NCBI GenBank assembly: GCA_031261605.1
Contig: JAISJI010000055.1
Location: forward strand, 12,844 to 76,843
From: Ignavibacteria bacterium
GTDB lineage: Bacteria; Bacteroidota; Ignavibacteria; Kapaibacteriales; UBA2268
Length of the DNA: 64,000 nucleotides
Direction: 5' to 3'
Below, in pieces: positions 42,556-58,658 of this stretch. The notes under the pieces were generated by a model. That model made no database searches. It worked only from the letters and a program-made list of their open reading frames with translations, and was not told the DNA's origin. The stretch's first letter is position 1. Each line of letters begins with the position of its first letter. Position numbers and translations under genes: made by a program.

Positions 42556-44238
42556 ATGAGAACAATTTACATTTTTGTTATAATCACATTGTTGTCTGTT
42601 TTGCCGGCGTATTCGTTGGTTGAGTATATGAATGTATGGACAATAGGCGGTGCAAAGCAAAGTATAGATATTAATATAATAGATACTATCATATTCAAAA
42701 ATAAGCAGATGCAGATGTTTTATAAAGATTTATCGAGCGACGCTATTGAAGTAGATAATATTGATAGCATTACATATTCGGTCGATGCAACAACACGCTT
42801 CGAACATATTCAATATCTCTTAAATCAATCTAAGAATAGCAATATAAAGAGTTATTACGTTTCTTTGCAAGGTAATGATTACTCTGGCGATGGCTCACTG
42901 AGCAAGCCGTGGAAGAGCGTTAAGTTTGCTATCAATACCGTTCCGGATGATTCTTGCGTAATTAGAGTGATGCCCGGCGAATATGAATCTGTCGGATATT
43001 TGACACGAAAGTTTAGCAAAAAAATACTAATAATTGCGGAGACAGCATATATTAAGATGAAAGGTGGAACGGATGCTCATAGAATATTCTTTTTTGATAA
43101 AGCAGAGAATTATATAGTTGCGGGCTTTGAGATTACAGGTAATCCGAATGTGAATAATTGGGAGGAGAAATACTCGCATTTAATACAGATTTCGGAATCA
43201 AATCACATTACATTTGAGAATTGTATTATCCACGATTGCTATAACAATGATAATATTAAAATAAATCTATACAGCACCGATATTGTGTTTAGAGGAAATG
43301 CTATATATAATCAATGTCAGAATGAAAATTCTGGCGACCAGCATTACGATGTTGTCGGTGGGAATGATTTGGTAATAGAAGACAATATATTTTTCAATGA
43401 CTTCAAGGCGTCGGGACGTCCGGAGATTAACAATGGCTCGGCATCATTCATAATGATAAAGTGCTTCAATGTTCCTAATCCTCCATCTAAGAATATATAT
43501 ATTGCGCGAAATGTATTTTTGAATTGGTGGGGAAAGGCAGACCAATCAATGCTTCTACTAGGAGAAAACGGCTTTCCACTGCACAATGTAGAGGGAGCAT
43601 TGATAGAGAATAACCTTTTCATCGGTAATACAGAAAATCGTATGTCGGGCGTGATTTCTCTTAAAGGAGCAAAAGATGTCACTATTCGTGCAAATACAAT
43701 TACTGGCTTTGTAAAACACGGCTGGGGCTGGAACCCGGGTGAAGGAAATTTTGGCTATGGCATTAGAGTTCAATGCGAAGGACAAAATCCACCACACGAA
43801 AATATTAACGTATATAACAATATATGGTCAGACCCAACAGGACGTATGCTATTCTTTTCCGCTCACAGCAAAGCGAATATGGCGAGTGGCGAATTAATGA
43901 ATAACTTGTTCTATAACAATGGAAATACGATAGAAGAGAAGCCAAATAATTGCTTTACTCCTGCAATGGATACACAAAAAATAGTAGCCGACCCGTTGCT
44001 TGAAACGGACTATAGCAAGGTTGTCACACCGGTATGGAATGCGACTCTGAAGCAATTTGGCGGAGGTGCAAAGAGTGTAGAGGAAGCGAGAGTGATGCTA
44101 ATAGAGACCTTTGGTAAATTCAAATCCTCATCTTCACCGGCAATAAATGCAGCATCGCCAGAGCAAATGCCAGCCAACGACATATTATTCAGGCATAGAA
44201 CAGATGGCAAGCCAGACATAGGGGCATTCGAGGAATAA
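42556..44238 (+). CDS. secreted right-handed parallel beta-helix (pectate-lyase-fold) repeat protein
   Basis: Signal peptide; recurring NxxIxxN / beta-helix rung patterns (ITFENCIIHDC, VFRGNAIYN, IEDNIFFND, IENNLFIGN, IRANTITG). Confidence 0.6.
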   Translation: MRTIYIFVIITLLSVLPAYSLVEYMNVWTIGGAKQSIDINIIDTIIFKNKQMQMFYKDLSSDAIEVDNIDSITYSVDATTRFEHIQYLLNQSKNSNIKSYYVSLQGNDYSGDGSLSKPWKSVKFAINTVPDDSCVIRVMPGEYESVGYLTRKFSKKILIIAETAYIKMKGGTDAHRIFFFDKAENYIVAGFEITGNPNVNNWEEKYSHLIQISESNHITFENCIIHDCYNNDNIKINLYSTDIVFRGNAIYNQCQNENSGDQHYDVVGGNDLVIEDNIFFNDFKASGRPEINNGSASFIMIKCFNVPNPPSKNIYIARNVFLNWWGKADQSMLLLGENGFPLHNVEGALIENNLFIGNTENRMSGVISLKGAKDVTIRANTITGFVKHGWGWNPGEGNFGYGIRVQCEGQNPPHENINVYNNIWSDPTGRMLFFSAHSKANMASGELMNNLFYNNGNTIEEKPNNCFTPAMDTQKIVADPLLETDYSKVVTPVWNATLKQFGGGAKSVEEARVMLIETFGKFKSSSSPAINAASPEQMPANDILFRHRTDGKPDIGAFEE

Positions 44239-46721: not shown

Positions 46722-46750
46722 GTTGTAAATTGGTCTCAATTTTGTTATTT
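46722..46750 (+). repeat. solitary partial CRISPR repeat (29-nt 5' half GTTGTAAATTGGTCTCAATTTTGTTATTT, identical to the array repeat)
   Basis: Exact match to positions 1-29 of the 46-nt repeat, about 2.3 kb upstream of the first canonical repeat. Confidence 0.8.
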
Positions 46751-46859
46751 ATACTATTAGTAGTAATGGTATTATCTAGTGCTACACTGCAAGCCACTAT
46801 CACTATTTAACATTTTACATATAATGGTGTTCCTTTAAGAAGATTTGTTTGTTTTGATA

Positions 46860-47084
46860 GATGAATTAGATTTAGATGATTCAACCTCTTATACTGCTAT
46901 TACATCGTGGTCTTCAAAATCAGCAAAAGGCTATATAACACTATATCTGAATGAAAAAATGCAAATTTGTGTCAGCTATACAGATTATAATGGCGATGTT
47001 GTTTATGATAAACAACATCCGGACGAGGATGTATATGAAGACGGAGGAGATTATGATGGATATGGAGAAGATTATGATGAATAA
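46860..47084 (+). CDS. small highly acidic hypothetical protein (C-terminus DEDVYEDGGDYDGYGEDYDE)
   Basis: ORF 46845..47084 with a likelier start at the ATG at 46860; strongly acidic, Tyr/Asp-rich tail. Confidence 0.4.
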   Translation, partial: DELDLDDSTSYTAITSWSSKSAKGYITLYLNEKMQICVSYTDYNGDVVYDKQHPDEDVYEDGGDYDGYGEDYDE

Positions 47085-47092
47085 TGTAAATA

Positions 47093-47800
47093 ATGCTTCA
47101 CAAGACAGAACTAAATATGAAGATAATTGATAAAAACAAAGATTATTATGATTACTTACAAGGCATAAATGGAATAGACCCTCAAGTTACTTTTGATAGG
47201 AGAGGTTCATTTATGCCTTCTATAAACTGGTTAAATAGTTTCATTATACCTTATCAAGAACCTGATAAATATCTTTTTCCTAACATAAACAAAAGCAAAA
47301 TAGTATTAGAAGTAGGGTTTCAACACTACATATTAGAGATAGAAAGAATGAAAGATGAAACTTGCAAATATAAATTGCATTCTCAGAGTAGAGATGAACA
47401 TTGTGGAGCATCTGTTATAGGAATATATCGCTTATCTTATTATTCAAGAGATGATAGGTGGAAAGTAACTAAAGAAACTCATATTCCGACTATTTTAGTA
47501 TCTGATAGTGAAACTAAAAGTAATATAGAATATGATGTTGTTATGACCCCTTGTTTCAAATGTTTATCTTCTGATACAGAAAATGTTAGACAATCTCCAT
47601 ATCTAAACCCAATATTAAAAGATACATTCATTCCTTCTATTATAGATGCACAAACTATCTGGAACAACATATATGAATATATTAGTTTTACTAATGAACC
47701 TTTAATAACAGATAGTATGACAGATAAAGAAAAATTAGAATCGAAAGGGTTTGATAACAAAAGTTCATTTAGACATCCGGTAAAATACGTTATGATTTGA
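47093..47800 (+). CDS. hypothetical protein; 3' end overlaps a degenerate CRISPR repeat
   Basis: 235-aa ORF; the last codons (..YVMI*) are encoded by repeat variant GTTATGATTTGA... Confidence 0.4.
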   Translation: MLHKTELNMKIIDKNKDYYDYLQGINGIDPQVTFDRRGSFMPSINWLNSFIIPYQEPDKYLFPNINKSKIVLEVGFQHYILEIERMKDETCKYKLHSQSRDEHCGASVIGIYRLSYYSRDDRWKVTKETHIPTILVSDSETKSNIEYDVVMTPCFKCLSSDTENVRQSPYLNPILKDTFIPSIIDAQTIWNNIYEYISFTNEPLITDSMTDKEKLESKGFDNKSSFRHPVKYVMI

Positions 47801-47833
47801 TTACATTTTAGTATATTTGTGGTGATACACAAC
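47789..47833 (+). repeat. degenerate CRISPR repeat (GTTATGATTTGATTACATTTTAGTATATTTGTGGTGATACACAAC)
   Basis: Shares termini GTT.TG...ACAAC and the central TTTGT.GTGGAT/A.ACAAC block with the canonical repeat; nearly identical to the variant at 48783. Confidence 0.75.
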
Positions 47834-47919
47834 CAAACTATTGCTTGATATTTCTACGAGATACAAGGAATTACAGAGTTGAACAAGGCGAAGGCATATT
47901 ATAATTTTATATAACAATT

Positions 47920-48477
47920 ATGAAAACTTACAATGATTATAAAGATTTGTTATTACAAATCAATTCATATCTAAATGAATCAGTTGATTTTAGTTTAAAT
48001 TTTAAGAGAAAATTAACTGATGATTTGTTAAAATTAAGCTATGTATTAGATGAATTTTATAATAATATTTTAACAGATAAAAATGGAAATATACATAATA
48101 GAAATACTGAAAGTTTTTATGTACATATTCATAAACCTGGAAAACATTTAGCAAAAATAAGAATCAGTGAATATGCACCTTTGTCATTCAATAAAATTGT
48201 AAATGATATTGTAAAAAATAAATATCAATATTATTATATCATAAATTTAACAGGGACAGAATGGAATAGTGTATTTAGTAAATTTTTTTTAAGACAATGT
48301 GTACTTCAAGCTGATGTATCAAATTTAACCCAAGTTGATTATGTATCCAAATCTATCATAAGTAATGATGTAAACAAACTGGTTATTAATATTATGGATA
48401 CTATATTGACATATTTACAAACCAACAACATAATTATATCAGGTTTAGAAATAGATTGGAACATATCAAAAATATAA
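47920..48477 (+). CDS. hypothetical protein (AT-rich, Asn/Tyr/Lys-rich)
   Basis: 185-aa ORF between two degenerate repeats; no family recognised. Confidence 0.4.
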   Translation: MKTYNDYKDLLLQINSYLNESVDFSLNFKRKLTDDLLKLSYVLDEFYNNILTDKNGNIHNRNTESFYVHIHKPGKHLAKIRISEYAPLSFNKIVNDIVKNKYQYYYIINLTGTEWNSVFSKFFLRQCVLQADVSNLTQVDYVSKSIISNDVNKLVINIMDTILTYLQTNNIIISGLEIDWNISKI

Positions 48478-48482
48478 ATATT

Positions 48483-48794
48483 ATGAAAAATTATCAAACA
48501 TACAAAATACTATCACTTATGGACAAAGTGCCTGTAGTAGATATGGCTACCTATATAGGTAAAATTTCACCATCTCTGTATGGTGAAGGTAAGGTTAAAC
48601 TCAAACAGAGAGATTGGTTCTACAATTTATCTACTGATGGAGGTGGTTATGTATATTACCATCATAAACAAGCATTATATGAGATAGTGGATAGAGACCT
48701 AATACTTTGTAAGAATATTGATTATAATTTGATACATCTGGTGATTGACAACTTCAGCAACTCAGTTCCCAATATATGGCACGTTATGATTTGA
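48483..48794 (+). CDS. hypothetical protein; 3' end overlaps a degenerate CRISPR repeat
   Basis: ORF 48456..48794, probable start at the ATG at 48483; ends ..HVMI* inside repeat variant GTTATGATTTGA, mirroring the gene at 47093. Confidence 0.35.
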   Translation: MKNYQTYKILSLMDKVPVVDMATYIGKISPSLYGEGKVKLKQRDWFYNLSTDGGGYVYYHHKQALYEIVDRDLILCKNIDYNLIHLVIDNFSNSVPNIWHVMI

Positions 48795-50042
48795 TTACAT
48801 TTTCGTTATATTTGTGGTGATACACAACAACTACTACTGCATTAACTACTGCTAATACGTTGTGATTTGCGTTCTTTTTCGTTATATTTGTGGTGATACA
48901 CAACACACGAAAAAAGCACGTCATTTGTCTTGAAGTTGTGATTTGCGTTCTTTTTCGTTATATTTGTAGTGGATTACAACTCCAAGCAGCGTTAGTATTG
49001 AATCTCTTCAGTTGTAAATTGGTCTCAATTTTGTTATTTTTGTAGTGGATTACAACTCTGTTGCCTCTCTGGGTCTTAATGCACGGTTGTAAATTGGTCT
49101 CAATTTTGTTATTTTTGTAGTGGATTACAACCTTGTTCTTTCCATACTTTATTTCAATGAAGTTGTAAATTGGTCTCAATTTTGTTATTTTTGTAGTGGA
49201 TTACAACTAATTATTATCTAACGCGTCGCACGGAATGGTTGTAAATTGGTCTCAATTTTGTTATTTTTGTAGTGGATTACAACATACCGATCAAATGAAT
49301 CGTTCGGAACGATGTTGTAAATTGGTCTCAATTTTGTTATTTTTGTAGTGGATTACAACTTCATTAACAATAAATTTACCACTATTTTGTTGTAAATTGG
49401 TCTCAATTTTGTTATTTTTGTAGTGGATTACAACAGTTGGTGGCTTTGTATCAGTGCCTGCTGTGTTGTAAATTGGTCTCAATTTTGTTATTTTTGTAGT
49501 GGATTACAACTTTTTAATATAATTTTCAATATATTCACCTGTTGTAAATTGGTCTCAATTTTGTTATTTTTGTAGTGGATTACAACCGTCTAAATTTGGG
49601 ATACCAACAAACGATTGTTGTAAATTGGTCTCAATTTTGTTATTTTTGTAGTGGATTACAACTATTGATGGCAACACAACGAGCAAAGAGTTGTTGTAAA
49701 TTGGTCTCAATTTTGTTATTTTTGTAGTGGATTACAACAATATGTTCGCTCATATCGTATTCTATATAGTTGTAAATTGGTCTCAATTTTGTTATTTTTG
49801 TAGTGGATTACAACTATAAGTATAGCGTATGTCTTGGCTCTGCCGTTGTAAATTGGTCTCAATTTTGTTATTTTTGTAGTGGATTACAACTTTCCTGGAT
49901 TGACTAATATTTATTATTTAGTTGTAAATTGGTCTCAATTTTGTTATTTTTGTAGTGGATTACAACGATTCTGAAGTGGATATTTATAGCAGCGGCGTTG
50001 TAAATTGGTCTCAATTTTGTTATTTTTGTAGTGGATTACAAC
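48783..50042 (+). CRISPR. CRISPR array: 17 repeats of 46 nt (14 canonical GTTGTAAATTGGTCTCAATTTTGTTATTTTTGTAGTGGATTACAAC from 49011, plus 3 progressively degenerate repeats at 48783, 48859, 48935), 16 spacers of 29-30 nt
   Basis: Repeat starts read directly: 48783, 48859, 48935, 49011, 49086, 49162, 49238, 49314, 49389, 49465, 49541, 49617, 49693, 49769, 49845, 49921, 49997. The repeat has the 7-bp terminal inverted repeat GTTGTAA / TTACAAC. Confidence 0.95.
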
Positions 50043-50094
50043 ATTCCCACTGCAACACTCGCAATAACAGTAACTTATACTAAACACTACGAAT

Positions 50095-50145
50095 GAAAAA
50101 AGAGCGAGCTTTTGAAATAGAAAGCCCGCTCTTTTGTTTTTTTGC
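50095..50145. terminator. bidirectional terminator-like hairpin (AAAAAA AGAGCGAGC...GCCCGCTCT TTTGTTTTTTT) between array and tracrRNA
   Basis: Stem flanked by an A-tract and a T-tract, so it can act on either strand. Confidence 0.55.
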
Positions 50146-50248
50146 AATCTTGCAGATAAAAAAATATCTGATAACAATATATTCAAATTATTTTTGTATA
50201 TTGCGTTCTCTTGTATTGCGATTTAAGTAATCTAAGTATAATCCGTTT

Positions 50249-50345
50249 AAAAAACAGAAACCCAACATAAATGCTGGGCTGCCGTGATGTTTTCACAACG
50301 GAATAATCCTTATTGTAAATTGTTCTCAATTTTGAATTACAAATA
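50249..50345 (-). ncRNA. predicted tracrRNA (anti-repeat + hairpins + intrinsic terminator), transcribed on the minus strand toward the array
   Basis: Plus-strand 50312-50342 ATTGTAAATTGTTCTCAATTTTGAATTACAA is a diverged repeat copy. Its minus-strand transcript UUGUAAUUCAAAAUUGAGAACAAUUUACAAU pairs with repeat positions 1-23 (about 22 bp, one mismatch). It is followed by stem-loops (CCGUUGUGAAAACAUCACGG; CAGCCCAGCAUUUAUGUUGGGUUUCUG) and UUUUUU. Confidence 0.6.
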
Positions 50346-50366
50346 TAACTATATTTTTGTTAACTA
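50331..50366 (+). promoter_or_regulatory. putative Bacteroidetes-type promoter for cas9 (-33 TTTG at 50331, -7 TATTTTTG at 50352-50359)
   Basis: TAnnTTTG-type -7 element 28 nt upstream of the cas9 ATG; -33/-7 spacing of 17 nt is slightly shorter than the 19-21 consensus. Confidence 0.35.
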
Positions 50367-50387
50367 CCAAATATTATCAAAATTATT

Positions 50388-53300
50388 ATGAAAAAAGTTT
50401 TAGGTTTAGATTTAGGAACGACTTCTATTGGCTGGGCATTGGTAAATAGAGCCGAAACAAAAGAAGAACGCTCAAATATTATTAAATTAGGTGTTAGAGT
50501 TGTGCCATTGTCTGTTGATGAAAATCTGAACTATGGCAAAGGGAAACCTATAACTACCAATGCTGGCAGACGGTTAAAGCGTGGAATGCGCCGAAATCTC
50601 CAGAGGTATAAGTTGCGTAGAGAAAATCTAATAGAAATTCTTAAAGACAATAAGTTCATTACAGATGATACTTTTCTCTCGGAAGAAGGTAAAGACACTA
50701 CATTTGAGACATATACACTGCGGGCAAAGGCAGTAACCGATGAGATTGCACTAGACGAATTGGCAAGAGTATTGCTGATGATTAATAAGAAACGTGGCTA
50801 TCGGAGTGGTAGAAAGGTAACAAACGATGAAGATGGCCAATCTGTTGATAGTATGGAGGTCGCTAAGAATTTATATCAAGATAATCTAACCCCAGGTGAA
50901 TTCAGTTTAAATCTGCTAAAGCAAGGTAAAAAAGAACTACCGGATTATTATCGCACTGATTTAAAAGCTGAAATAGATAAAATATGGGAATACCAACGAG
51001 AATATCACTCAGAAATACTTACAGACGAACTTAAAATACAACTTGAAGGAAAAGGACAAAAGGCAGCTGCACAACTATTCTTTGCTAAGTATGGATTTAA
51101 TACCGCAGATGTGAAAGGCAGTAAAGAAGCACAAAAACTGAAAAAATATGAATTGCGAGTGGATGCCTTGACAAAGGAGTTGGATAAAGAGGAACTTGCA
51201 CTTGTAATTTCAAATATTTGTGGTGAAATTAATAGTTCGAGTGGATACTTGGCAGCGATAAGCGATAGAAGTAAGGAACTGGAATTTAATAACCAAACTG
51301 TTGGTCAGTATTTTATGGAGCAATTAGCAAAAAATTCACATTTCAGTGTCAAAAATAAGATCTTCTACAGACAAGATTATATTGACGAATTTGAAAAGAT
51401 ATGGTCGACGCAAAGTAAATTCCATACAGAACTAACTAACGAATTGAAATCAAAAATTAGAGATGTGATTATTTTTTATCAACGAAGATTGAAGAGTCAA
51501 AAAGGGCTGATTAGTTTCTGCGAGTTCGAAAGAAGAGAAGTTGAAATAGAGATTGACGGCAAAATAAAGGAGAAGGTAGTTGGCTCAAGAGTCGTGCCTA
51601 AATCTTCTCCTTTATTTCAAGAATTTAAAATATGGCAAATCCTTAATAATATTCAGGTTACAACACATAAGCAGACGGGCGAATATTTTGAATTAGAGCA
51701 AGACCAAAAGGAATACTTAGCACAGGAATTGAGTATTAGAACAAAATTATCTGCCACAGAAGCATTAAAGCTACTATACCCCAAAGAAGACAAAGATTAT
51801 GATTTGAATTACAATATATTGGAAGGAAATAAGACGCAAGCAGAGTTATTTGATGTATACAAAAAAATTATAGTGGAAAGTAATAGATTAAGCGACCACG
51901 ATTTTTCAAAAATGAATGCAAAGCAAACAATAGAGGCGGTAGCAGAAATATTTGACGACTTGGGATACAGCACGGATATTTTGGAATTTGATTCTTCTTA
52001 TGAAGGAGATATTCGCCAGCAGCCGATGTATAAATTGTGGCATATATTATATTCGTATGAGGGTGATAGTGGAAATGAAAAATTAGAAAAGAAATTAACC
52101 GACTTATATGGATTTGCGCAAGAAACTGCTAAACGTATTGCAAATATTTCTTTTTCGTTGGATTACGGAAACTTAAGCGCGAAAGCAATTAAAAAGATAC
52201 TGCCATTTCTAAAAAGTGGCTCACGCTATGATGAATCTGTAGAAAAAGGAGGATATGATAGACATTCTAAGAGTTCGCTGACAAAAGAAGAAATTGATAA
52301 TAAGATATTGAAAGATAAATTAAAAAACCTTCCTAAAAATTATTTACGTAATCCAGTTGTAGAGAAGATTTTAAATCAAATGGTAAATGTAGTAAATGCT
52401 ATTATTGATACTTACGGCAAACCAGATGAAATAAGCGTTGAACTTGCGCGAGAATTGAAAATGAATGCAAAAGAGAGAGAAAATAAAACGAAAGCAATAT
52501 CCAAATCTAACAAAAACAACGAAGCAATAAAAAAACGTTTGAAGGATGAATTTAGTATCAGTAATGTAAGTCATAATGATATATTGCGTTATAAGTTATA
52601 TCAGGAACTGAAAGATAATGCCTATAAGACACTTTATTCAAATCAATATATCCCGCAGGAAAAATTATTTAGCAAAGAAATTGACAGAGACCATATTATT
52701 CCGCAATCCCGTTTATTTGATGATTCATTCTCCAATAAAATATTGGAATATAAAAGCGTTAATATTGAAAAAGGAAATGAAACCGCTTATGATTATGTTC
52801 TAAATAAATATGGAAAAGAGAAAATTGATGATTATTTATCAAAAATAAATAAATTGTATGCCAACAAATCCATATCCAAGACGAAATACAATAAATTGAA
52901 AATGAAAGGCATAGACATCCCAGATGATTTTATTGAAAGGGACATAAAAGATACTCAATATATTGCAAAAACAGCCAAAAATATGTTAGAGGAAATTGTA
53001 AATGTTGTCATTTCCACTTCAGGGGAAATAACAAGCAAACTACGTGAGGATTGGGGATTAGTAGATATAATGAAGGAATTGAATTGGGATAAATACAGCA
53101 AACTTGGATTAACAGAAGTGATAGAAAATGAAGAAGGACATAAAATAAGCAAAATTAAAGATTGGAATAAGCGTAACGACCATCGCCATCACGCAATGGA
53201 TGCTCTAACCGTTGCATTTACTACGCGTAGCCATATCCAGCACCTCAATACATTGAAATCTAATTCTGAATCTGACTTAATTTATAAGGACAAGAGAAAT

Positions 53301-54494
53301 AAAAAGAAGTTCTCGCCACCTATCCCGGAAAAAGATTTTAGAGCCGAAGCAAAAGAGCATTTAGAAAACACCTTAATTTCAATTAAAGCAAAAAATAAAG
53401 TAGCAACCATAAATACTAATAAAACTAAAACAAATACAAAAAATAATTTCAAAGAAACTAAACAACTCACCCCACGCGGACAACTGCATAACGAGACAAT
53501 ATATGGAAGTATTCAACAAAATATTGTGGTTTTCGAAAAAATTGGTAGTTCATTTGATGCAGATAAAATAAATAAAGTAACAAAACCTGCATATAAAGAG
53601 GCGTTATTAGAACGTCTACATAAGTTTAATGATGACCCAAAACTTGCTTTTACTGTGAAAAATAGTTTATCAAAAAATCCGATATACTTAAATGATTTGC
53701 AAACTAATAAGGTACCAGAAAAAGTAAAAATAGAAAAAATAGAAACAATTTATACTATTCGTAAAGATATTAAGCCAGATTTAAACGTAGAAAAAGTAGT
53801 CGATTCTAAAATCCGTAAGTTATTGGAAAAGCGTATCAAAGAATATAATAACGACCCTAAAAAAGCATTCGAAAATTTAGATGAAAATCCTATTTGGCTT
53901 AATGAGAAAAAATGCATATCTATCAAGCGTGTTACCATACGTGGCGTTAGTAATACTGAGCCACTGCATAGCAAAAAAGATAAAGATGGCAAATTATTAT
54001 TAGATGGAAGCGGACAAAATATACCTATTGATTTTGTTCAAACCGGTAACAATCATCACGTGGCTATGTACAAGGATCAAGATGGAGATCTGCAAGAAAA
54101 TGTGGTCTCTTTTTACGAGGCAGTTTTGCGTAAAAATGATAAATTGCCAATAATGGATAAGAATTTTAATAGCGAACTTGGTTGGCAGTTTATGTTTTCT
54201 ATGGAGCAGAACGAATATTTTATTTTTCCAAATGAACAAACAAGATTCAATCCCAATGAAATTGATTTATTAGAACCAAATAATTATCATCTAATTAGCC
54301 CAAATTTATATAGAGTGCAAAAACTTGCTACAAAAAATTATATGTTTAGACATCATTTAGAAACAGATGTTCAGGAAAGAAAAGAACTTAAAGGTATTTC
54401 ATATAAATTGATACAAAGTACAAAATACTTAGAAGACATTGTAAAGGTTCGTACGAATCACCTTGGACAAATTATATCTGTTGGAGAATACTAA
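50388..54494 (+). CDS. cas9: type II CRISPR-associated endonuclease Cas9 (1368 aa)
   Basis: RuvC-I MKKVLGLDLGTTSIGWAL; RuvC-II ISVELARELKMNAKER; HNH DRDHIIPQS...NKILEYKSVNIEKGN; RuvC-III HHAMDALTVAF; Arg-rich bridge helix GRRLKRGMRRNLQRYKLRR. Confidence 0.95.
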   Translation: MKKVLGLDLGTTSIGWALVNRAETKEERSNIIKLGVRVVPLSVDENLNYGKGKPITTNAGRRLKRGMRRNLQRYKLRRENLIEILKDNKFITDDTFLSEEGKDTTFETYTLRAKAVTDEIALDELARVLLMINKKRGYRSGRKVTNDEDGQSVDSMEVAKNLYQDNLTPGEFSLNLLKQGKKELPDYYRTDLKAEIDKIWEYQREYHSEILTDELKIQLEGKGQKAAAQLFFAKYGFNTADVKGSKEAQKLKKYELRVDALTKELDKEELALVISNICGEINSSSGYLAAISDRSKELEFNNQTVGQYFMEQLAKNSHFSVKNKIFYRQDYIDEFEKIWSTQSKFHTELTNELKSKIRDVIIFYQRRLKSQKGLISFCEFERREVEIEIDGKIKEKVVGSRVVPKSSPLFQEFKIWQILNNIQVTTHKQTGEYFELEQDQKEYLAQELSIRTKLSATEALKLLYPKEDKDYDLNYNILEGNKTQAELFDVYKKIIVESNRLSDHDFSKMNAKQTIEAVAEIFDDLGYSTDILEFDSSYEGDIRQQPMYKLWHILYSYEGDSGNEKLEKKLTDLYGFAQETAKRIANISFSLDYGNLSAKAIKKILPFLKSGSRYDESVEKGGYDRHSKSSLTKEEIDNKILKDKLKNLPKNYLRNPVVEKILNQMVNVVNAIIDTYGKPDEISVELARELKMNAKERENKTKAISKSNKNNEAIKKRLKDEFSISNVSHNDILRYKLYQELKDNAYKTLYSNQYIPQEKLFSKEIDRDHIIPQSRLFDDSFSNKILEYKSVNIEKGNETAYDYVLNKYGKEKIDDYLSKINKLYANKSISKTKYNKLKMKGIDIPDDFIERDIKDTQYIAKTAKNMLEEIVNVVISTSGEITSKLREDWGLVDIMKELNWDKYSKLGLTEVIENEEGHKISKIKDWNKRNDHRHHAMDALTVAFTTRSHIQHLNTLKSNSESDLIYKDKRNKKKFSPPIPEKDFRAEAKEHLENTLISIKAKNKVATINTNKTKTNTKNNFKETKQLTPRGQLHNETIYGSIQQNIVVFEKIGSSFDADKINKVTKPAYKEALLERLHKFNDDPKLAFTVKNSLSKNPIYLNDLQTNKVPEKVKIEKIETIYTIRKDIKPDLNVEKVVDSKIRKLLEKRIKEYNNDPKKAFENLDENPIWLNEKKCISIKRVTIRGVSNTEPLHSKKDKDGKLLLDGSGQNIPIDFVQTGNNHHVAMYKDQDGDLQENVVSFYEAVLRKNDKLPIMDKNFNSELGWQFMFSMEQNEYFIFPNEQTRFNPNEIDLLEPNNYHLISPNLYRVQKLATKNYMFRHHLETDVQERKELKGISYKLIQSTKYLEDIVKVRTNHLGQIISVGEY

Positions 54495-55394
54495 ATGCTC
54501 AAACAAACCCTCTACTTCGGCAACCCCGCTTATTTATCTGTGAAAAATAAACAACTCGTTGTTAAATTGATAGATAGCGATGAGATAATCACTCGCCCAA
54601 TCGAAGACATCGGTATCGTTATTTTAGATAATTGGCAAATCACTATAACCCAAAACGTTATCGCATCTCTCCTCGAAAATAACGCCGCTATTATACATTG
54701 CAATAATGCACATCTCCCTGTCGGTCTTGTCCTTAATTTAGATGGTAATACCTTGCAATCCCAACGCTTTAAGACACAAATAAATGCTTCCGAACCACTA
54801 AAAAAACAACTCTGGCAACAAATAATTAAAGCAAAAATAGAAAATCAATCGCTGCTCCTAAAAAGCCAAAATAAAGATATTAAACGACTCCAAGTTATGC
54901 TCCGCAATCTTAAAACAGGCGATACAGATAATTATGAAGCACAAGCGGCAGCGTATTATTGGAAAAATATTTTTAGCAACTATCTCCCTAATTTTAAGCG
55001 AGATAGAGAAGGTGACCAGCCGAATAATTTGCTAAATTATGGTTATGCAATTTTGCGTGCAGCAGTTGCACGAGCACTTGTTGGCTCTGGTTTATTGCCA
55101 ACTCTGGGCATTTTTCACCGCAACCAATATAACGCATATTGTTTAGCAGATGATATTATGGAACCATATCGTCCATTTGTGGATAGAGCCGTTTTTAATT
55201 ACTTAAAAGAAAATAAATATTGCGATTTCTTGGATACAGAAGCGAAAAAATATTTATTCCAAGTAATGCAAGACGATGTGATGTTTGGAAAAGAGCGAAG
55301 CCCTTTATTTGTTGGACTTACAACGACAACTGCTTCACTTGTAGCGTGCTTTGAAGGCAAAAAGCGAAAAATAAAATATCCAACAATCTGCTAA
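54495..55394 (+). CDS. cas1: CRISPR-associated endonuclease Cas1 (type II)
   Basis: 299 aa; NLLNYGYAILRAAVARALVGSGLLPTLGIFHRNQYNAYCLADDIMEPYRPFVD; start overlaps the cas9 stop (TAAATG). Confidence 0.95.
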   Translation: MLKQTLYFGNPAYLSVKNKQLVVKLIDSDEIITRPIEDIGIVILDNWQITITQNVIASLLENNAAIIHCNNAHLPVGLVLNLDGNTLQSQRFKTQINASEPLKKQLWQQIIKAKIENQSLLLKSQNKDIKRLQVMLRNLKTGDTDNYEAQAAAYYWKNIFSNYLPNFKRDREGDQPNNLLNYGYAILRAAVARALVGSGLLPTLGIFHRNQYNAYCLADDIMEPYRPFVDRAVFNYLKENKYCDFLDTEAKKYLFQVMQDDVMFGKERSPLFVGLTTTTASLVACFEGKKRKIKYPTIC

Positions 55395-55443
55395 ACTAAT
55401 TCATTAATTATAGTATATATCCGATAATTTTAGAATATTATCT

Positions 55444-55785
55444 ATGTATATTATGCAACGACTTAGTGAGTATAGAATTATGTGGGTTATGGTTTTATTT
55501 GACTTGCCGACAGAAACCAAAGTTGACCGCAAGCGATACACACAATTCCGCAAAGAATTACTGAAAGATGGATTTGATATGTTTCAGTTTTCTATTTATG
55601 TCCGACATTGTGCCAGCAGAGAAAATGCACAAGTCCATATAAAACGTGTCAAAGATAAAATGCCACAATTCGGACAAATCGGACTAATGACTATTACCGA
55701 CAAGCAATTCGGGCAGATAGAAATTTTCTGTAATCGCAAAGTTGTCGAACCATCTCACGTTCAGATGCAATTAGATATGTTTTGA
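55444..55785 (+). CDS. cas2: CRISPR-associated endoribonuclease Cas2
   Basis: About 100-113 aa; VLFDLPTETKVDRKRYTQFRKELLKDGFDMFQFSIYVRHC is a typical Cas2 core; exact start uncertain (several in-frame ATGs). Confidence 0.9.
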   Translation: MYIMQRLSEYRIMWVMVLFDLPTETKVDRKRYTQFRKELLKDGFDMFQFSIYVRHCASRENAQVHIKRVKDKMPQFGQIGLMTITDKQFGQIEIFCNRKVVEPSHVQMQLDMF

Positions 55786-55805
55786 GTGAATTGGAAAACT
55801 ATCCT

Positions 55806-55995
55806 TATTTCTTAATAAATTTCTCTACTTCATTACTCTTGCCATTTTTCAAACGAACAAAATACGTTCCAACAGTGAAATTGCTCATATCTATTGCGGT
55901 CTCAAGCATTCCATCTGTTGTTTGTTTAACTTCTGGAGACAATGAACCATACTCTCCTTGTTTAGACAACTTTGTAGATGTTTCCAGCGGTAAGC
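55806..55995 (-). pseudogene. orphan fragment encoding a T9SS-type C-terminal domain remnant (...GTYFVRLKNGKSNEVEKFIKK*)
   Basis: Minus-strand reading frame immediately downstream of cas2 preserves the GTYFVRL motif also seen in the T9SS CTD of the protein at 42021-42548; only about 38-62 codons with no upstream domain. Confidence 0.3.
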
Positions 55996-56018
55996 CATAA
56001 TTTTAAGTAAAAAATCAC

Positions 56019-58658
56019 CTAATACTTAATAACTGATTTTACTATACGCCGACCATTAACAACCATAGTTATATAATATACACCTGCAGGAAAATTATAC
56101 AAATCAAAAGATTGTGAAAAAATTCCGGCAACCGCTTTATTATCATAAACTTGCATTACTTCTCTGCCTAGTATATCATTAATTGTAATTGTTAAACTTG
56201 CATCAACTTGCAAATTCAGAACAATATTCGCTTTATCATTTATCGGATTCGGGTAGATTAATATGTTTTCATTGGAATAGTTATCTGCTTCAATAGCAGT
56301 AGGATATGGTGTTTTCAACCGAAAGACGCTAGCACCACTAGTGCTAACATAAATCATAGTTGAATCAAATGGGTCTTCTTGTATGCTAGCCACAGAATGA
56401 AATAGAAAGCCCGGAACTTCACACCAGTCGTCGGGCATTGTATTTGCTCCCTTGAAGGAAACAAGCACCTGACCGATGCCATTCCCAAGATACAAAACAT
56501 CAGCGTTACGACTATCCACGTGAATAGCATTTGTAGTTATAGTATCAGGATAAATCTCACGCCAAGCATTTCCGCCATCCGTAGATACATAAGCACCACT
56601 ATTGAAGTAATGTATATTTTCGCCCCATTCTCCAGCAGAATGCCGATATCCCGTTGTATAAATTGTATTATTATTGCTATTTGGAGCAACAGATATGCTA
56701 TTGAGCATCGTTACGCTATTGTTATTTGGATAGTTAGCCAATTTAATCCATTGTGTCGCATTTTTATCTAAATAGTAAGTGGAACTCTCTGCCGATGATT
56801 TTTCATTGGAAGAAAATAGGCAATATAAGCGGGAATAATCCGGAGACCACACAAATTTTGATGTATGATATCGTGTTTCATTCATTCCGTCATTAAATTT
56901 CGTGAAAGTTTGTCCGCCATCCGTAGATTTATATACACCATAGCCAAAGCAAGTGACATACACAACACGCTGAGCAGGATTTGTGGGACTATTCGGGTCA
57001 ATAGTTATAGAAGTGCAGATAGCGTGGTCGGGTAATCCGCTAACTCCATCGTTGTCTGTGTAAGATGTCTTATCAGAGTTAGGATTAATAGGAATCCAAT
57101 TCTTACCGCCATCAATGCTTCTTGCAACTCCACCAATATATGAGCCAGAATGATTTTCCACAAGATTGATAGCAGCTGCCACATCTTTGCTGTGCATATT
57201 GCTCCAAGCAGAAAGAATAAAGTCCCTATTATCTTTGTCAAATGCAATGTCATAACAAGTATTTAGCCAGCCAGAGGGAATACCATTTTTACTCCAATTC
57301 CAACTCTTGCCACCATCTTTTGACTCCATTAGAAATATATCCGTATAGCAAATGAATTGATGTAGCGAATCAAAAGGGTCTACATAATATCCATGATTAC
57401 AAGTGACCCATAATCCACGACTTGAATATGTATTAGTAGTAGAGTCATAATCATTAGAAATGGACTCCCAAGTGTCGCCTCCATCCCTAGTAATAAGGGC
57501 ATCACCCATATTTGTCATTATAGCAATATTCGGGTCCGAGAGCGATGCAGAAAGCCCAGAACTTGTGCCACTCCAACCAAATTCCCCTACCCAAACATCT
57601 ACATAATACGGATTATTAATGTTGGATAACGACCAGCCCTTCAATCCAATTTTCCAAGACGCTCCTCCATCGAATGTCCTTGCTACTCCCATATCCATTC
57701 CTCCTGTTTTGCTATCCAAAGTATCGCCGAAGCATACATAAATATCATTTAACGAACTAACAGCAAGTTGTTTAAATATTCGCTTCCCGTTTGAATTTGG
57801 CTCACCAGTATTCCAATGCAGCCAGCGTTCGGAAAATGTTGTTGTAATTGGCAACCAAGTAATTCCACCATCATTGGAACGACTAACTTGATTAGCAAAT
57901 TTATCTACACCAGTTGTTGCTGATTCTATAATGAAGAAGTAATTCTTATTCGTTTGCTTGTCATAGTATATTGCACCCGATTTATTTGCTCTTAACAATA
58001 TTGTATCTACCTTGCCGTTATCGCTAACTTTGAATACCCCTTTGGCAGATAATATATCTAATTTGCGAGAACCAACTGGCGATGTCGGGTCTATCTGAAA
58101 GCCAGCATAAGAATCACCAAGGTCAGGGAATAACTTATTCGCTAACGATGCGATAACTTTCCAATTCTCACCATTATCTGTTGATTTATAGATAGTTGGC
58201 TTAGGTTCCCACTGCGCATCATAGTAGCCCGACGTTACAAAATACATTGTATTGCTATCTGCCGGGTCCATTACCATACCAATAATCTTTCCCTCGTGAA
58301 CGGTCAGATTCGCAATATTACTCGTATCTTTTGGGAAAATTATCTTAAATGTCTCTCCACCATCGGTAGAAAGGGAAAGATAAGTATTCAACGCAAATAC
58401 TTTCTTTGCATTATGCGGTGAACAGTAGAACCTGCCTCTATTCTGAAACTTATGCAACTTAAAGTTTTTGCCACCATCTCTACTACTAAAAGCACTCGAC
58501 ATATCGCAAAATATAAAGATATTATCATTATTCAATGAATTGATTAGAGGAAAAAGCATCCGTCCGCCGCCGCCAGGACCAAGTGCCTCTTTGGAGAAAA
58601 GATTGTTTGTTGCTACTGTCATAGTAGCAAGAACGAATAGTAGTAATAGTTTTTTCAT
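56019..58658 (-). CDS. secreted BNR/Asp-box (sialidase-like / Sortilin-type) repeat protein with T9SS C-terminal sorting domain
   Basis: Signal peptide; at least 9 Asp-box repeats (STDGGETF, STDNGENW, SNDGGITW, TFDGGASW, TRDGGDTW, SKDGGKSW, SIDGGKNW, STDGGQTF, STDGGNAW); C-terminal YPNPINDKANIVLNL...GVYYITMVVNGRRIVKSVIKY. Confidence 0.8.
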   Translation of the reverse strand: MKKLLLLFVLATMTVATNNLFSKEALGPGGGGRMLFPLINSLNNDNIFIFCDMSSAFSSRDGGKNFKLHKFQNRGRFYCSPHNAKKVFALNTYLSLSTDGGETFKIIFPKDTSNIANLTVHEGKIIGMVMDPADSNTMYFVTSGYYDAQWEPKPTIYKSTDNGENWKVIASLANKLFPDLGDSYAGFQIDPTSPVGSRKLDILSAKGVFKVSDNGKVDTILLRANKSGAIYYDKQTNKNYFFIIESATTGVDKFANQVSRSNDGGITWLPITTTFSERWLHWNTGEPNSNGKRIFKQLAVSSLNDIYVCFGDTLDSKTGGMDMGVARTFDGGASWKIGLKGWSLSNINNPYYVDVWVGEFGWSGTSSGLSASLSDPNIAIMTNMGDALITRDGGDTWESISNDYDSTTNTYSSRGLWVTCNHGYYVDPFDSLHQFICYTDIFLMESKDGGKSWNWSKNGIPSGWLNTCYDIAFDKDNRDFILSAWSNMHSKDVAAAINLVENHSGSYIGGVARSIDGGKNWIPINPNSDKTSYTDNDGVSGLPDHAICTSITIDPNSPTNPAQRVVYVTCFGYGVYKSTDGGQTFTKFNDGMNETRYHTSKFVWSPDYSRLYCLFSSNEKSSAESSTYYLDKNATQWIKLANYPNNNSVTMLNSISVAPNSNNNTIYTTGYRHSAGEWGENIHYFNSGAYVSTDGGNAWREIYPDTITTNAIHVDSRNADVLYLGNGIGQVLVSFKGANTMPDDWCEVPGFLFHSVASIQEDPFDSTMIYVSTSGASVFRLKTPYPTAIEADNYSNENILIYPNPINDKANIVLNLQVDASLTITINDILGREVMQVYDNKAVAGIFSQSFDLYNFPAGVYYITMVVNGRRIVKSVIKY

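What the first reader, a model, noticed from the sequence alone, without database searches (positions are those of the whole stretch)
50249..50370. Predicted tracrRNA on the minus strand between array and cas9, with its anti-repeat overlapping the cas9 promoter
Plus-strand 50312-50342 is a diverged copy of the repeat's 5' half. Transcribed from the minus strand it gives an anti-repeat that forms about 22 bp with repeat positions 1-23, with one G-A mismatch at position 12. Downstream on the minus strand are two stem-loops and a U6 tract, with the terminator end near 50249. This fixes crRNA polarity as plus-strand. The same DNA carries the putative -33/-7 elements of cas9 on the plus strand. It also carries a TAATTTTG -7-like element for the tracrRNA on the minus strand at about 50378-50385. 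The arrangement could couple tracrRNA and cas9 expression.
Basis: seen in the sequence. Interest (0 to 1): 0.7.

Follow-up and report, generated by a model that had tools for sequence, protein, structure and literature searches.

The report
tracrRNA gene of a type II-C CRISPR locus

Summary
Window 50249-50334 (minus strand) encodes a tracrRNA of about 86 nt. It has four parts:
- a 23-nt anti-repeat that pairs with repeat positions 1-23 (G1·U wobble, G12·A mismatch);
- a 25-nt Cas9-binding core, AAGGATTATTCCGTTGTGAAAACAT;
- a window-specific extra hairpin;
- a terminator hairpin followed by U6.

The core is identical in the window and was found in 76 of 80 related cas9 loci. A covariance model built without the window hits only this site (60.7 bits, E 5e-10). 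Repeat and anti-repeat co-vary from locus to locus. The crRNAs are therefore plus-strand, which fits the -33/-7 promoter motif found inside every repeat.

Two corrections are needed. The conserved tracrRNA promoter is TTTG-N20-TATATTTG at 50371->50340, so the start is near 50335. The cas9 -7 box (50352-50359) does not touch the anti-repeat; only a weak -33 candidate overlaps its first 4 nt.

Tightly interleaved divergent tracrRNA and cas9 promoters occur only in this window among 69 loci. Coupling is possible but untested. This is a new member of a known kind, of modest interest. No expression data exist.

The parts
50249..50334 (-). tracrRNA gene. Predicted primary transcript of about 86 nt, with the 5' end at 50335 +/- 3 and the 3' end in the U-tract at 50249-50254.
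   Evidence: A model built from 67 relatives without the window hits 50334->50279 at 60.7 bits, E 5e-10; the next hit scores 16.5 bits. Fold z = -4.0.
50312..50334 (-). Anti-repeat. It pairs with repeat positions 1-23, with a G1·U wobble and a G12·A mismatch at the position where relatives have a 1-nt bulge.
50287..50311 (-). Conserved core AAGGAUUAUUCCGUUGUGAAAACAU: the nexus hairpin GGA-UUAU-UCC (50309-50300) plus the linker.
   Evidence: The core is exact in the window and is found with at most 4 mismatches in 76 of 80 related loci. Nexus pair 28-33 shows compensatory changes in L036 and L080.
50281..50299 (-). Extra hairpin specific to this window (GUUGUGA / UCACGGC). Its 5' arm is the conserved linker.
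   Evidence: Predicted. It is not conserved: 63% of cells pair, and the central pairs are broken in 74 of 75 and 58 of 75 sequences.
50249..50280 (-). Intrinsic terminator: a 9-bp hairpin at 50280->50259, then UUUCUGUUUUUU.
   Evidence: Nearly all of the 74 non-redundant tails (73 relatives plus the window) have a GC-rich hairpin plus a T-run 18-46 nt after the core (median 25); in 3 relatives an early T-run call hid the hairpin.
50340..50371 (-). tracrRNA promoter: -33 TTTG (50371->50368), a 20-nt spacer, and -7 TATATTTG (50347->50340).
   Evidence: The -7 box sits in the same register (28 nt from the core) as in relatives. It is exact in 70 of 77 upstream regions against about 2% expected, and TTG spacers peak at 19-20 nt. 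G is at -5 by the F. johnsoniae numbering (PMC6847099).
50331..50359 (+). Putative cas9 promoter: -7 TATTTTTG (50352-50359, 28 nt before the ATG) and a weak -33 candidate TTTG (50331-50334, spacer 17). Predicted +1 is near 50364.
   Evidence: In relatives with an identifiable cas9 box, it lies mostly 17-58 nt before the ATG (mode 25-26).
50378..50385 (-). It is an exact TAnnTTTG, but it has no -33 element and is not conserved. At most it is a secondary promoter for a long form.
49011..50042 (+). CRISPR array: 14 identical 46-nt repeats and 13 spacers of 29-30 nt. Each repeat carries TTG(2-4)-N20-TATTTTTG(25-32).
48783..48980 (+). Three variant or hybrid repeats at the transcription-upstream (old) end. 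They pair poorly with the tracrRNA.
   Evidence: One search gives -3.0 to -9.6 kcal/mol against -24.5 for the consensus repeat.
50095..50145 (.). Bidirectional terminator hairpin in the 205-nt region between the last repeat and the tracrRNA 3' end.
   Evidence: z = -4.8 on the plus strand and -6.0 on the minus strand, with U-runs on both strands.
50388..55785 (+). cas9 (50388-54494), cas1 (54495-55394) and cas2 (55444-55785). There is no csn2 or cas4, so the locus is type II-C.
   Evidence: Catalytic-motif residues D8, H769 and D938 are invariant in the 15-sequence Cas9 alignment; naming them as catalytic rests on my knowledge.

Best explanation
Window 50249-50334 (minus strand) is the tracrRNA gene of a type II-C CRISPR-Cas9 system of the long-repeat Bacteroidota kind. 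The window's Cas9 is 100% identical to a protein that a database source names as from an Ignavibacteria MAG.

Inferred mechanism:
1. The primary sigma factor starts transcription near 50335 from a -33/-7 promoter (TTTG-N20-TATATTTG), so the RNA begins at its anti-repeat.
2. Transcription ends at the hairpin plus U6 at 50249-50280.
3. crRNAs are made on the plus strand. They most likely start from the -33/-7 promoter inside each repeat (predicted +1 at repeat position 37) and run toward the cas9-proximal, newest end of the array. The bidirectional terminator at 50095-50145 stops them.
4. The first 23 nt of each repeat pair with the anti-repeat.
5. Cas9 binds the duplex together with the invariant nexus and linker (AAGGAUUAUUCCGUUGUGAAAAC).

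What is shown and what is inferred:
- Shown by sequence and comparison: the pairing, family membership, the terminator, and conservation of the promoter motif.
- Inferred: the actual start sites, RNA processing, and Cas9 binding.
For: - Uniqueness and strength of the anti-repeat.
- The 25-nt core is identical to that of relatives whose Cas9 is only 53-63% identical. It lies antisense to cas9 and, in all but two of those loci, 47-250 nt upstream of it.
- The leave-one-out covariance model gives 60.7 bits, E 5e-10, as the only hit.
- Compensatory changes occur in the nexus.
- Nearly all of 74 tails have a hairpin and T-run on the tracrRNA strand, although the stem sequences are unrelated.
- In 5 loci the whole unit is inverted and keeps its own promoter and terminator.
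- Repeat and anti-repeat co-vary. Own pairs have a median of -25.9 kcal/mol against -17.6 for cross pairs. The window's repeat gives -24.5 with its own anti-repeat and at best -14.5 with any other.
- The -7 box is conserved in register.
- Exact TAnnTTTG occurs in the crRNA sense in 37 of 43 repeats and in the reverse sense in 2.
- Published work reports that II-C arrays are transcribed from repeat promoters toward the variable end (PMC8092290, PMC12080349). The degenerate, poorly pairing repeats lie at the upstream end, as described there.
- cas9, cas1 and cas2 are intact.
Against: - There are no RNA data of any kind. The sequence is from a metagenome-assembled genome.
- The host's use of -33/-7 promoters is only weakly supported within the window: 10 of 41 ORFs have the motif upstream, against 10% at random positions.
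- No protospacers were found, so the PAM side could not confirm polarity.
- No sibling locus with the same repeat was found, so the acquisition end of the array could not be checked.
- Rfam has no matching family.
Confidence: 0.93

Rival explanations
1. The main tracrRNA species is a long form of about 124 nt, started from the reader's TAATTTTG (50385->50378). Its 5' leader is antisense to the cas9 promoter and 5' UTR, and it adds pairing with the middle of the repeat.
For: The site is an exact TAnnTTTG. The long form gives a stronger predicted duplex with the full repeat, -31.0 against -25.1 kcal/mol. From my own knowledge, S. pyogenes has long and short tracrRNA forms.
Against: There is no TTG 17-21 nt upstream. 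Relatives have no conserved counterpart; second minus-strand boxes are sporadic and at variable positions. The extra pairing arises only because the cas9 -7 box and the repeat -7 box are the same motif, TATTTTTG. The conserved box at 50347->50340 sits in the family register.
Confidence: 0.1
2. The site is a decayed orphan repeat left by array rearrangement, with no function as an RNA gene.
For: The locus is visibly rearranged. The array lies upstream of cas9, and there are variant and truncated repeats at 46722-48980.
Against: Only the first 23 nt resemble the repeat. These are followed by a 25-nt core identical to that of 76 other loci, and by a terminator. A promoter lies in the conserved register. 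The covariance-model hit has E 5e-10.
Confidence: 0.02
3. The polarity is opposite: crRNAs are read from the minus strand and the tracrRNA from the plus strand, running into cas9.
For: Degenerate repeats lie at the left end, which in non-II-C systems would mark the leader-distal end.
Against: - The plus-strand RNA has no structure (z = +0.38) and no terminator.
- For a minus-sense crRNA, no good partner for the repeat's 5' end exists anywhere in the window.
- Repeat promoters point in the plus direction.
- Published work reports that II-C systems acquire spacers at the transcription-downstream end (PMC12080349, PMC8092290).
Confidence: 0.01
4. In addition to being a tracrRNA gene, the tightly interleaved divergent promoters make tracrRNA and cas9 transcription mutually exclusive or co-regulated.
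For: The predicted start sites are about 29 bp apart. The -7 boxes are 4 bp apart on opposite strands. Each -33 element lies beyond the other promoter's start site.
Against: This arrangement occurs in only 1 of 69 loci. Where relatives have an identifiable cas9 promoter, it is separated from the tracrRNA promoter. The cas9 -33 spacing of 17 nt is atypical. A second plus-strand box at 50189 could also serve cas9. The argument rests on motifs alone.
Confidence: 0.2

Closest known systems
tracrRNAs of long-repeat (46-48 nt) Bacteroidota type II-C systems, for example Riemerella anatipestifer (anti-repeat TGAAAGCAATTCACAA upstream of cas9, PMC5006608), Flavobacterium psychrophilum (PMC10309648), and the 76 loci collected here
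   Same: - The position, antisense to and just upstream of cas9.
- An identical 25-nt nexus and linker core.
- A G1·U wobble.
- A distortion at repeat positions 12-15.
- A single terminator hairpin.
- A -7 box 24-30 nt upstream of the core.
   Different: - The repeat and anti-repeat sequences have diverged together (GTTGTAAATTGGTCTC against GTTGTGATTTGCTTTC).
- There is a mismatch where relatives have a 1-nt bulge.
- There is an extra hairpin formed with the linker.
- The array lies upstream of cas9 and on the same strand, not downstream of cas2 and antisense.
- The cas9 promoter is packed against the tracrRNA promoter.
- The host is labelled Ignavibacteria.
Neisseria meningitidis and Campylobacter jejuni type II-C systems
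   Same: The gene set is cas9-cas1-cas2 only. crRNAs are transcribed from promoters inside each repeat, toward the end of the array where new spacers are added. The oldest repeat is often mutated in its tracrRNA-binding part (PMC12080349, PMC8092290, PMC3737331).
   Different: Those repeats are 36 nt long and carry a sigma-70 extended -10 element. Here the repeats are 46 nt long and carry a Bacteroidetes-type -33/-7 pair. The Cas9 is much larger (1368 aa).
Streptococcus pyogenes tracrRNA (type II-A)
   Same: The module order is the same: anti-repeat, then nexus, then 3' hairpin or hairpins and terminator. The nexus motif is similar, AAGG-N5/6-CCGUU (from my own knowledge of the SpCas9 guide sequence).
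   Different: Rfam finds no match. The subtype differs. From my own knowledge, the S. pyogenes array is transcribed from its leader and the RNAs are processed by RNase III. No long form is evident here.
CbCas9 (PDB 8iyq), the closest Cas9 with a solved structure
   Same: It is a large Bacteroidota-type II-C Cas9 (E 4.6e-64).
   Different: It is only distantly related in sequence. I did not compare its guide RNA.

Membership tests
tracrRNA (type II CRISPR trans-activating RNA) | An anti-repeat complementary to the 5' part of the CRISPR repeat, lying outside the array | tested here: met
   22 pairs over repeat positions 1-23 at -24.5 to -25.2 kcal/mol. It is the unique best partner in 64 kb.
tracrRNA (type II CRISPR trans-activating RNA) | Encoded within or next to a cas9 locus | tested here: met
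   The gene lies 54 nt upstream of the cas9 ATG and 207 nt from the last repeat.
tracrRNA (type II CRISPR trans-activating RNA) | A Cas9-binding 3' part (nexus plus hairpin) followed by an intrinsic terminator, on the strand that makes the anti-repeat complementary to the crRNA | tested here: met
   The opposite strand is unstructured.
tracrRNA (type II CRISPR trans-activating RNA) | The RNA is expressed, pairs with crRNA, and is needed for Cas9 activity | not testable with these tools
   No transcriptome or biochemistry is available for this MAG.
Bacteroidota long-repeat II-C tracrRNA family (as defined here by 76 loci) | The core AAGGAUUAUUCCGUUGUGAAAACAU immediately 3' of the anti-repeat | tested here: met
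   25 of 25 bases are identical. The model built without the window scores 60.7 bits, E 5e-10.
Bacteroidota long-repeat II-C tracrRNA family (as defined here by 76 loci) | A TAnnTTTG -7 box 24-30 nt upstream of the core, with TTG about 19-20 nt further upstream | tested here: met
   TATATTTG lies 28 nt from the core, and TTTG has a 20-nt spacer.
Bacteroidota long-repeat II-C tracrRNA family (as defined here by 76 loci) | The anti-repeat co-varies with the locus's own repeat | tested here: met
Type II-C CRISPR-Cas | cas9, cas1 and cas2 only, with no csn2 or cas4 | tested here: met
   The next ORF is a BNR/T9SS-sorted protein on the other strand.
Type II-C CRISPR-Cas | A promoter inside each repeat, with transcription toward the acquisition end | tested here: inconclusive
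   The motif is present in every repeat and is conserved in 37 of 43 relatives in the crRNA sense. Degenerate repeats lie at the upstream end. There are no start-site data and no sibling arrays to show which end is variable.

The most novel reading that the evidence does not exclude
Two readings remain open.

First, in this locus the tracrRNA and cas9 promoters are fully interleaved. The start sites are about 29 bp apart and each -33 element lies beyond the other's start site. RNA polymerase could then load in only one direction at a time, which would set the tracrRNA:Cas9 ratio by promoter competition.

Second, and more broadly, the roughly 10 extra bases of Bacteroidota II-C repeats may exist to hold a complete -33/-7 promoter. 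If so, the tracrRNA and every crRNA share one promoter grammar.
Probability: 0.15. Interest if true: 0.45.

Novelty: new member of a known kind. Interest (0 to 1): 0.3.

Why it matters
The result fixes the guide-RNA design for an uncharacterised 1368-aa Cas9: crRNA sense, the 23-nt repeat handle, and a tracrRNA of about 86 nt. It also corrects the RNA's 5' end.

The comparative set has wider use. It gives a conserved promoter and start-site prediction for tracrRNAs of this Cas9 clade, which a recent Flavobacterium study listed as unresolved (PMC10309648). It also shows that the long repeats carry a full -33/-7 promoter, where one earlier analysis using E. coli-type tools found none (PMC5006608).

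None of this changes how type II-C systems are understood.

Tried and rejected
- Rfam scan with permissive thresholds over 48000-56500: only weak matches driven by the terminator, and no tracrRNA family.
- Protospacer search to get the PAM side as an independent test of polarity: the whole array against GenBank phages and three 20-mers from the newer-end spacers against IMG/VR all found nothing. No spacer matches elsewhere in the window.
- Search for sibling arrays to see which end varies: the repeat 23-mer is absent from the metagenome contigs. A tracrRNA-based pattern returned 5 loci, four of which are family members with different anti-repeats (L081 lacks the full core); no arrays were detected in any.
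- Opposite-polarity model: rejected.
- The window's middle hairpin as a family feature: rejected.
- A large prophage next to the array: rejected. The region 29.6-46.4 kb holds housekeeping genes.
- MAFFT cannot align the terminator hairpins, so I judged them per sequence instead.

Full report
**Layout**

The window holds a type II CRISPR locus.
- The array has 14 identical 46-nt repeats, GTTGTAAATTGGTCTCAATTTTGTTATTTTTGTAGTGGATTACAAC, at 49011-50042 on the plus strand. It has 13 spacers of 29-30 nt.
- A 205-nt spacer region follows. It contains a strong bidirectional terminator hairpin at 50095-50145 (z = -4.8 and -6.0).
- The flagged region comes next.
- Then come cas9 (50388-54494, 1368 aa; TIGR01865 E 4e-156), cas1 (type II form) and cas2.
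- There is no csn2 or cas4, so the locus is type II-C.
- To the left of the array lie three variant or hybrid repeats (48783, 48859, 48935). Further left are one more variant repeat (47786) and a truncated consensus half-repeat (46722-46750).

**Checking the observation**

- Plus strand 50313-50334 matches repeat positions 2-23 with one mismatch. It is the only repeat-like site outside the array region in the window, and none is expected by chance.
- As minus-strand RNA it pairs with repeat positions 1-23: a G·U pair at position 1 and an unpaired G·A at position 12, at about -25 kcal/mol.
- I scanned the whole window on both strands, using the 5' 24 nt of the repeat in either polarity. This site is the best partner. 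The runner-up scores -18.8 kcal/mol and is irregular, and nothing lies downstream of cas2.
- Downstream on the minus strand are a small GGA/UCC hairpin, a second hairpin, and a 9-bp GC-rich hairpin at 50280->50259 followed by UUUCUGUUUUUU ending at 50249 (fold z = -4.0).

**What it is**

The window's Cas9 is identical to a protein that a database source names as from an Ignavibacteria MAG. Its nearest other relatives are about 63% identical and come from Bacteroidota, in a family of more than 6000 proteins. I fetched 80 related loci.

- The 25-nt block AAGGATTATTCCGTTGTGAAAACAT follows the window's anti-repeat directly. It is present with at most 4 mismatches (usually none) in 76 of 80 loci. 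It is nearly always antisense to cas9 and 47-250 nt upstream of it. It occurs once in the window.
- In five loci the unit is inverted, yet it keeps its own upstream box and downstream terminator. This marks it as an independent, strand-specific gene.
- The aligned RNAs have an invariant nexus whose third pair changes compensatorily in two loci: GGG/CCC and GGC/GCC.
- Nearly all of the 74 non-redundant 3' tails, the window's included, are a GC-rich hairpin plus a T-run 18-46 nt after the core (median 25). In three relatives an early T-run call hid the hairpin. The stem sequences are otherwise unrelated.
- A covariance model built from 67 relatives, without the window, finds window 50334->50279 (minus) at 60.7 bits, E 5e-10. 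The next hit scores 16.5 bits.
- Repeat and anti-repeat co-vary locus by locus. Own pairs have a median of -25.9 kcal/mol and cross pairs -17.6. The window's repeat gives -24.5 with its own anti-repeat and no better than -14.5 with any other.
- Relatives have a 1-nt bulge (repeat GCTTTC against tracrRNA-side GCTTC) where the window has its G·A mismatch. The distortion is therefore a family feature at that position.

The identification as a tracrRNA gene is secure, short of expression data.

**Polarity**

Three lines of evidence agree on plus-strand crRNAs.
- Only in that sense does the repeat's 5' end meet the anti-repeat's 3' end next to the nexus. The plus-strand alternative 'tracrRNA' is unstructured (z = +0.38) and has no terminator.
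- Every repeat carries TTG(2-4)-N20-TATTTTTG(25-32) on the plus strand. Exact TAnnTTTG occurs at positions 23-27 in the crRNA sense in 35 of 43 non-redundant repeats (37 of 43 at any position), and in reverse in 2. This is the -33/-7 promoter of the Bacteroidetes primary sigma factor (PMC7366714).
- The degenerate repeats lie at the transcription-upstream end and pair poorly with the tracrRNA, at -3 to -9.6 kcal/mol. This is the published II-C pattern: promoters in each repeat, transcription toward the variable end, acquisition at the last repeat, and the oldest repeat mutated in its tracrRNA-binding part (PMC8092290, PMC12080349).

The window differs from its relatives in array position. In the 46 related loci whose array could be oriented, crRNA sense is antisense to cas9, and in nearly all of them the array lies downstream of cas2. 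Here it lies upstream and on the same strand. In the window and in the typical downstream arrays, crRNA transcription points toward the cas genes; L022's upstream array points away from cas9.

*The promoter.*
- Exact TAnnTTTG ends mostly 24-30 nt upstream of the core in 70 of 77 non-redundant upstream regions (76 from relatives plus the window). The background rate of 0.001 per nt predicts about 2%. TTG or TTTG spacers peak at 19-20 nt.
- The window's equivalent is TTTG 50371->50368, N20, TATATTTG 50347->50340, 28 nt from the core.
- With G at -5 (PMC6847099), +1 falls at about 50335. The RNA therefore starts at its anti-repeat and is about 86 nt long.
A long form cannot be excluded, but nothing supports it.
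- The extra pairing that a long form would gain with the middle of the repeat arises only because the cas9 -7 box and the repeat -7 box are the same motif, TATTTTTG.

*The structure.* The middle hairpin is specific to this window. In the family that segment is an invariant single-stranded linker.

*The overlap.* The cas9 -7 box (50352-50359, 28 nt before the ATG) lies outside the anti-repeat. Only a -33 candidate with an unusual 17-nt spacer overlaps its first four bases.

**Coupling**

- The two predicted start sites are about 29 bp apart and divergent, with the -7 boxes 4 bp apart. The promoters therefore interleave, and simultaneous occupancy looks unlikely.
- The arrangement is specific to this locus. 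Among 42 loci with a long tracrRNA-cas9 interval, 29 have a separate cas9 box, nearly all 17-58 nt before the ATG. Among 27 with a short interval, only the window has one.
- Coupling is therefore a reasonable but untested idea for this locus, not a family design.

**Novelty**

tracrRNAs upstream of cas9 in long-repeat Bacteroidota systems have been noted before, for example the 16-nt anti-repeat of Riemerella, which belongs to this family (PMC5006608). Repeat-borne promoters in II-C systems are established. This is a new, somewhat diverged member in a rearranged locus.

The comparative by-products may be useful. They are the conserved tracrRNA promoter and start site, and the full -33/-7 pair in the long repeats. 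In the papers I could search, they are only partly anticipated. PMC10309648 says tracrRNA transcription is unresolved. PMC8092290 mentions only the TTG. PMC5006608 found no repeat promoters.

**Limits**

- There are no RNA data.
- No protospacers or sibling arrays were found.
- Evidence within the window that the host uses -33/-7 promoters is modest: 10 of 41 ORFs against 10% at random positions.

Noticed in passing
window 49011-50042 (each repeat, positions 2-32); related loci L002-L080: Every repeat holds a complete Bacteroidetes-type promoter in the crRNA sense: TTG, a 19-20 nt spacer, then TAnnTTTG. It is conserved in 37 of 43 non-redundant related repeats and almost never in reverse. The predicted start is repeat position 37, which would give a 10-nt repeat-derived 5' tag before each spacer. 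This could explain why these repeats are about 10 nt longer than the usual 36.
   Followed up: partly
window 46722-48980: A consensus repeat appears to have been split by about 2.2 kb. Its 5' 29 nt lie at 46722-46750 and still pair fully with the tracrRNA. Its 3' 13 nt lie at 48968-48980, in a hybrid repeat. Between them are variant repeats (47786, 48783, 48859) of a different II-C type and small ORFs. One ORF (47093-47800) matches phage family phrog_4243 (E 3e-13). Two ORFs (47093-47800 and 48456-48794) end with the same V-M-I-stop inside a variant repeat.
   Followed up: partly
window 42557-42570 (+): A 14-nt stretch identical to the tracrRNA anti-repeat (GAGAACAATTTACA, including its tracrRNA-specific base) covers bases 2-15 (codons 1-5) of a 560-aa ORF with a weak phage-tail match. 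My rough chance estimate is 0.01-0.02.
   Followed up: no
window 50095-50145: A strong bidirectional terminator hairpin lies between the last repeat and the tracrRNA 3' end. It would stop array read-through from running antisense into the tracrRNA and cas9, and would stop tracrRNA read-through into the array.
   Followed up: yes
window 50189-50196 (+): A further exact TAnnTTTG (TATTTTTG), with no -33 element, lies upstream of the tracrRNA 3' end. If it is active, it would transcribe antisense through the tracrRNA gene toward cas9.
   Followed up: no
window 50293-50299 and 50312-50318 (-); all related tracrRNAs: The invariant linker GUUGUGA equals the first 7 nt of the family repeat. It can pair with the 3' end of the anti-repeat around the nexus hairpin. 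Free tracrRNA may therefore mask that end of its anti-repeat. All variants seen are wobble-compatible, so covariation cannot test this.
   Followed up: no
L004, L005, L008-L010, L012, L014, L025, L052, L059, L070 and others: In 26 of 27 loci where the tracrRNA lies 90 nt or less from the cas9 ATG, there is no TAnnTTTG for cas9 between them. The tracrRNA -33 region then falls in or at the cas9 start. Where cas9 is transcribed from in these loci is unclear.
   Followed up: partly
L026, L030, L031, L035, L073; L075; L082: Five loci have the tracrRNA unit inverted, on the same strand as cas9. L075 has two tracrRNA cores. In L082 a tracrRNA core is preceded by the 3' part of a repeat, including its -7 box.
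   Followed up: no
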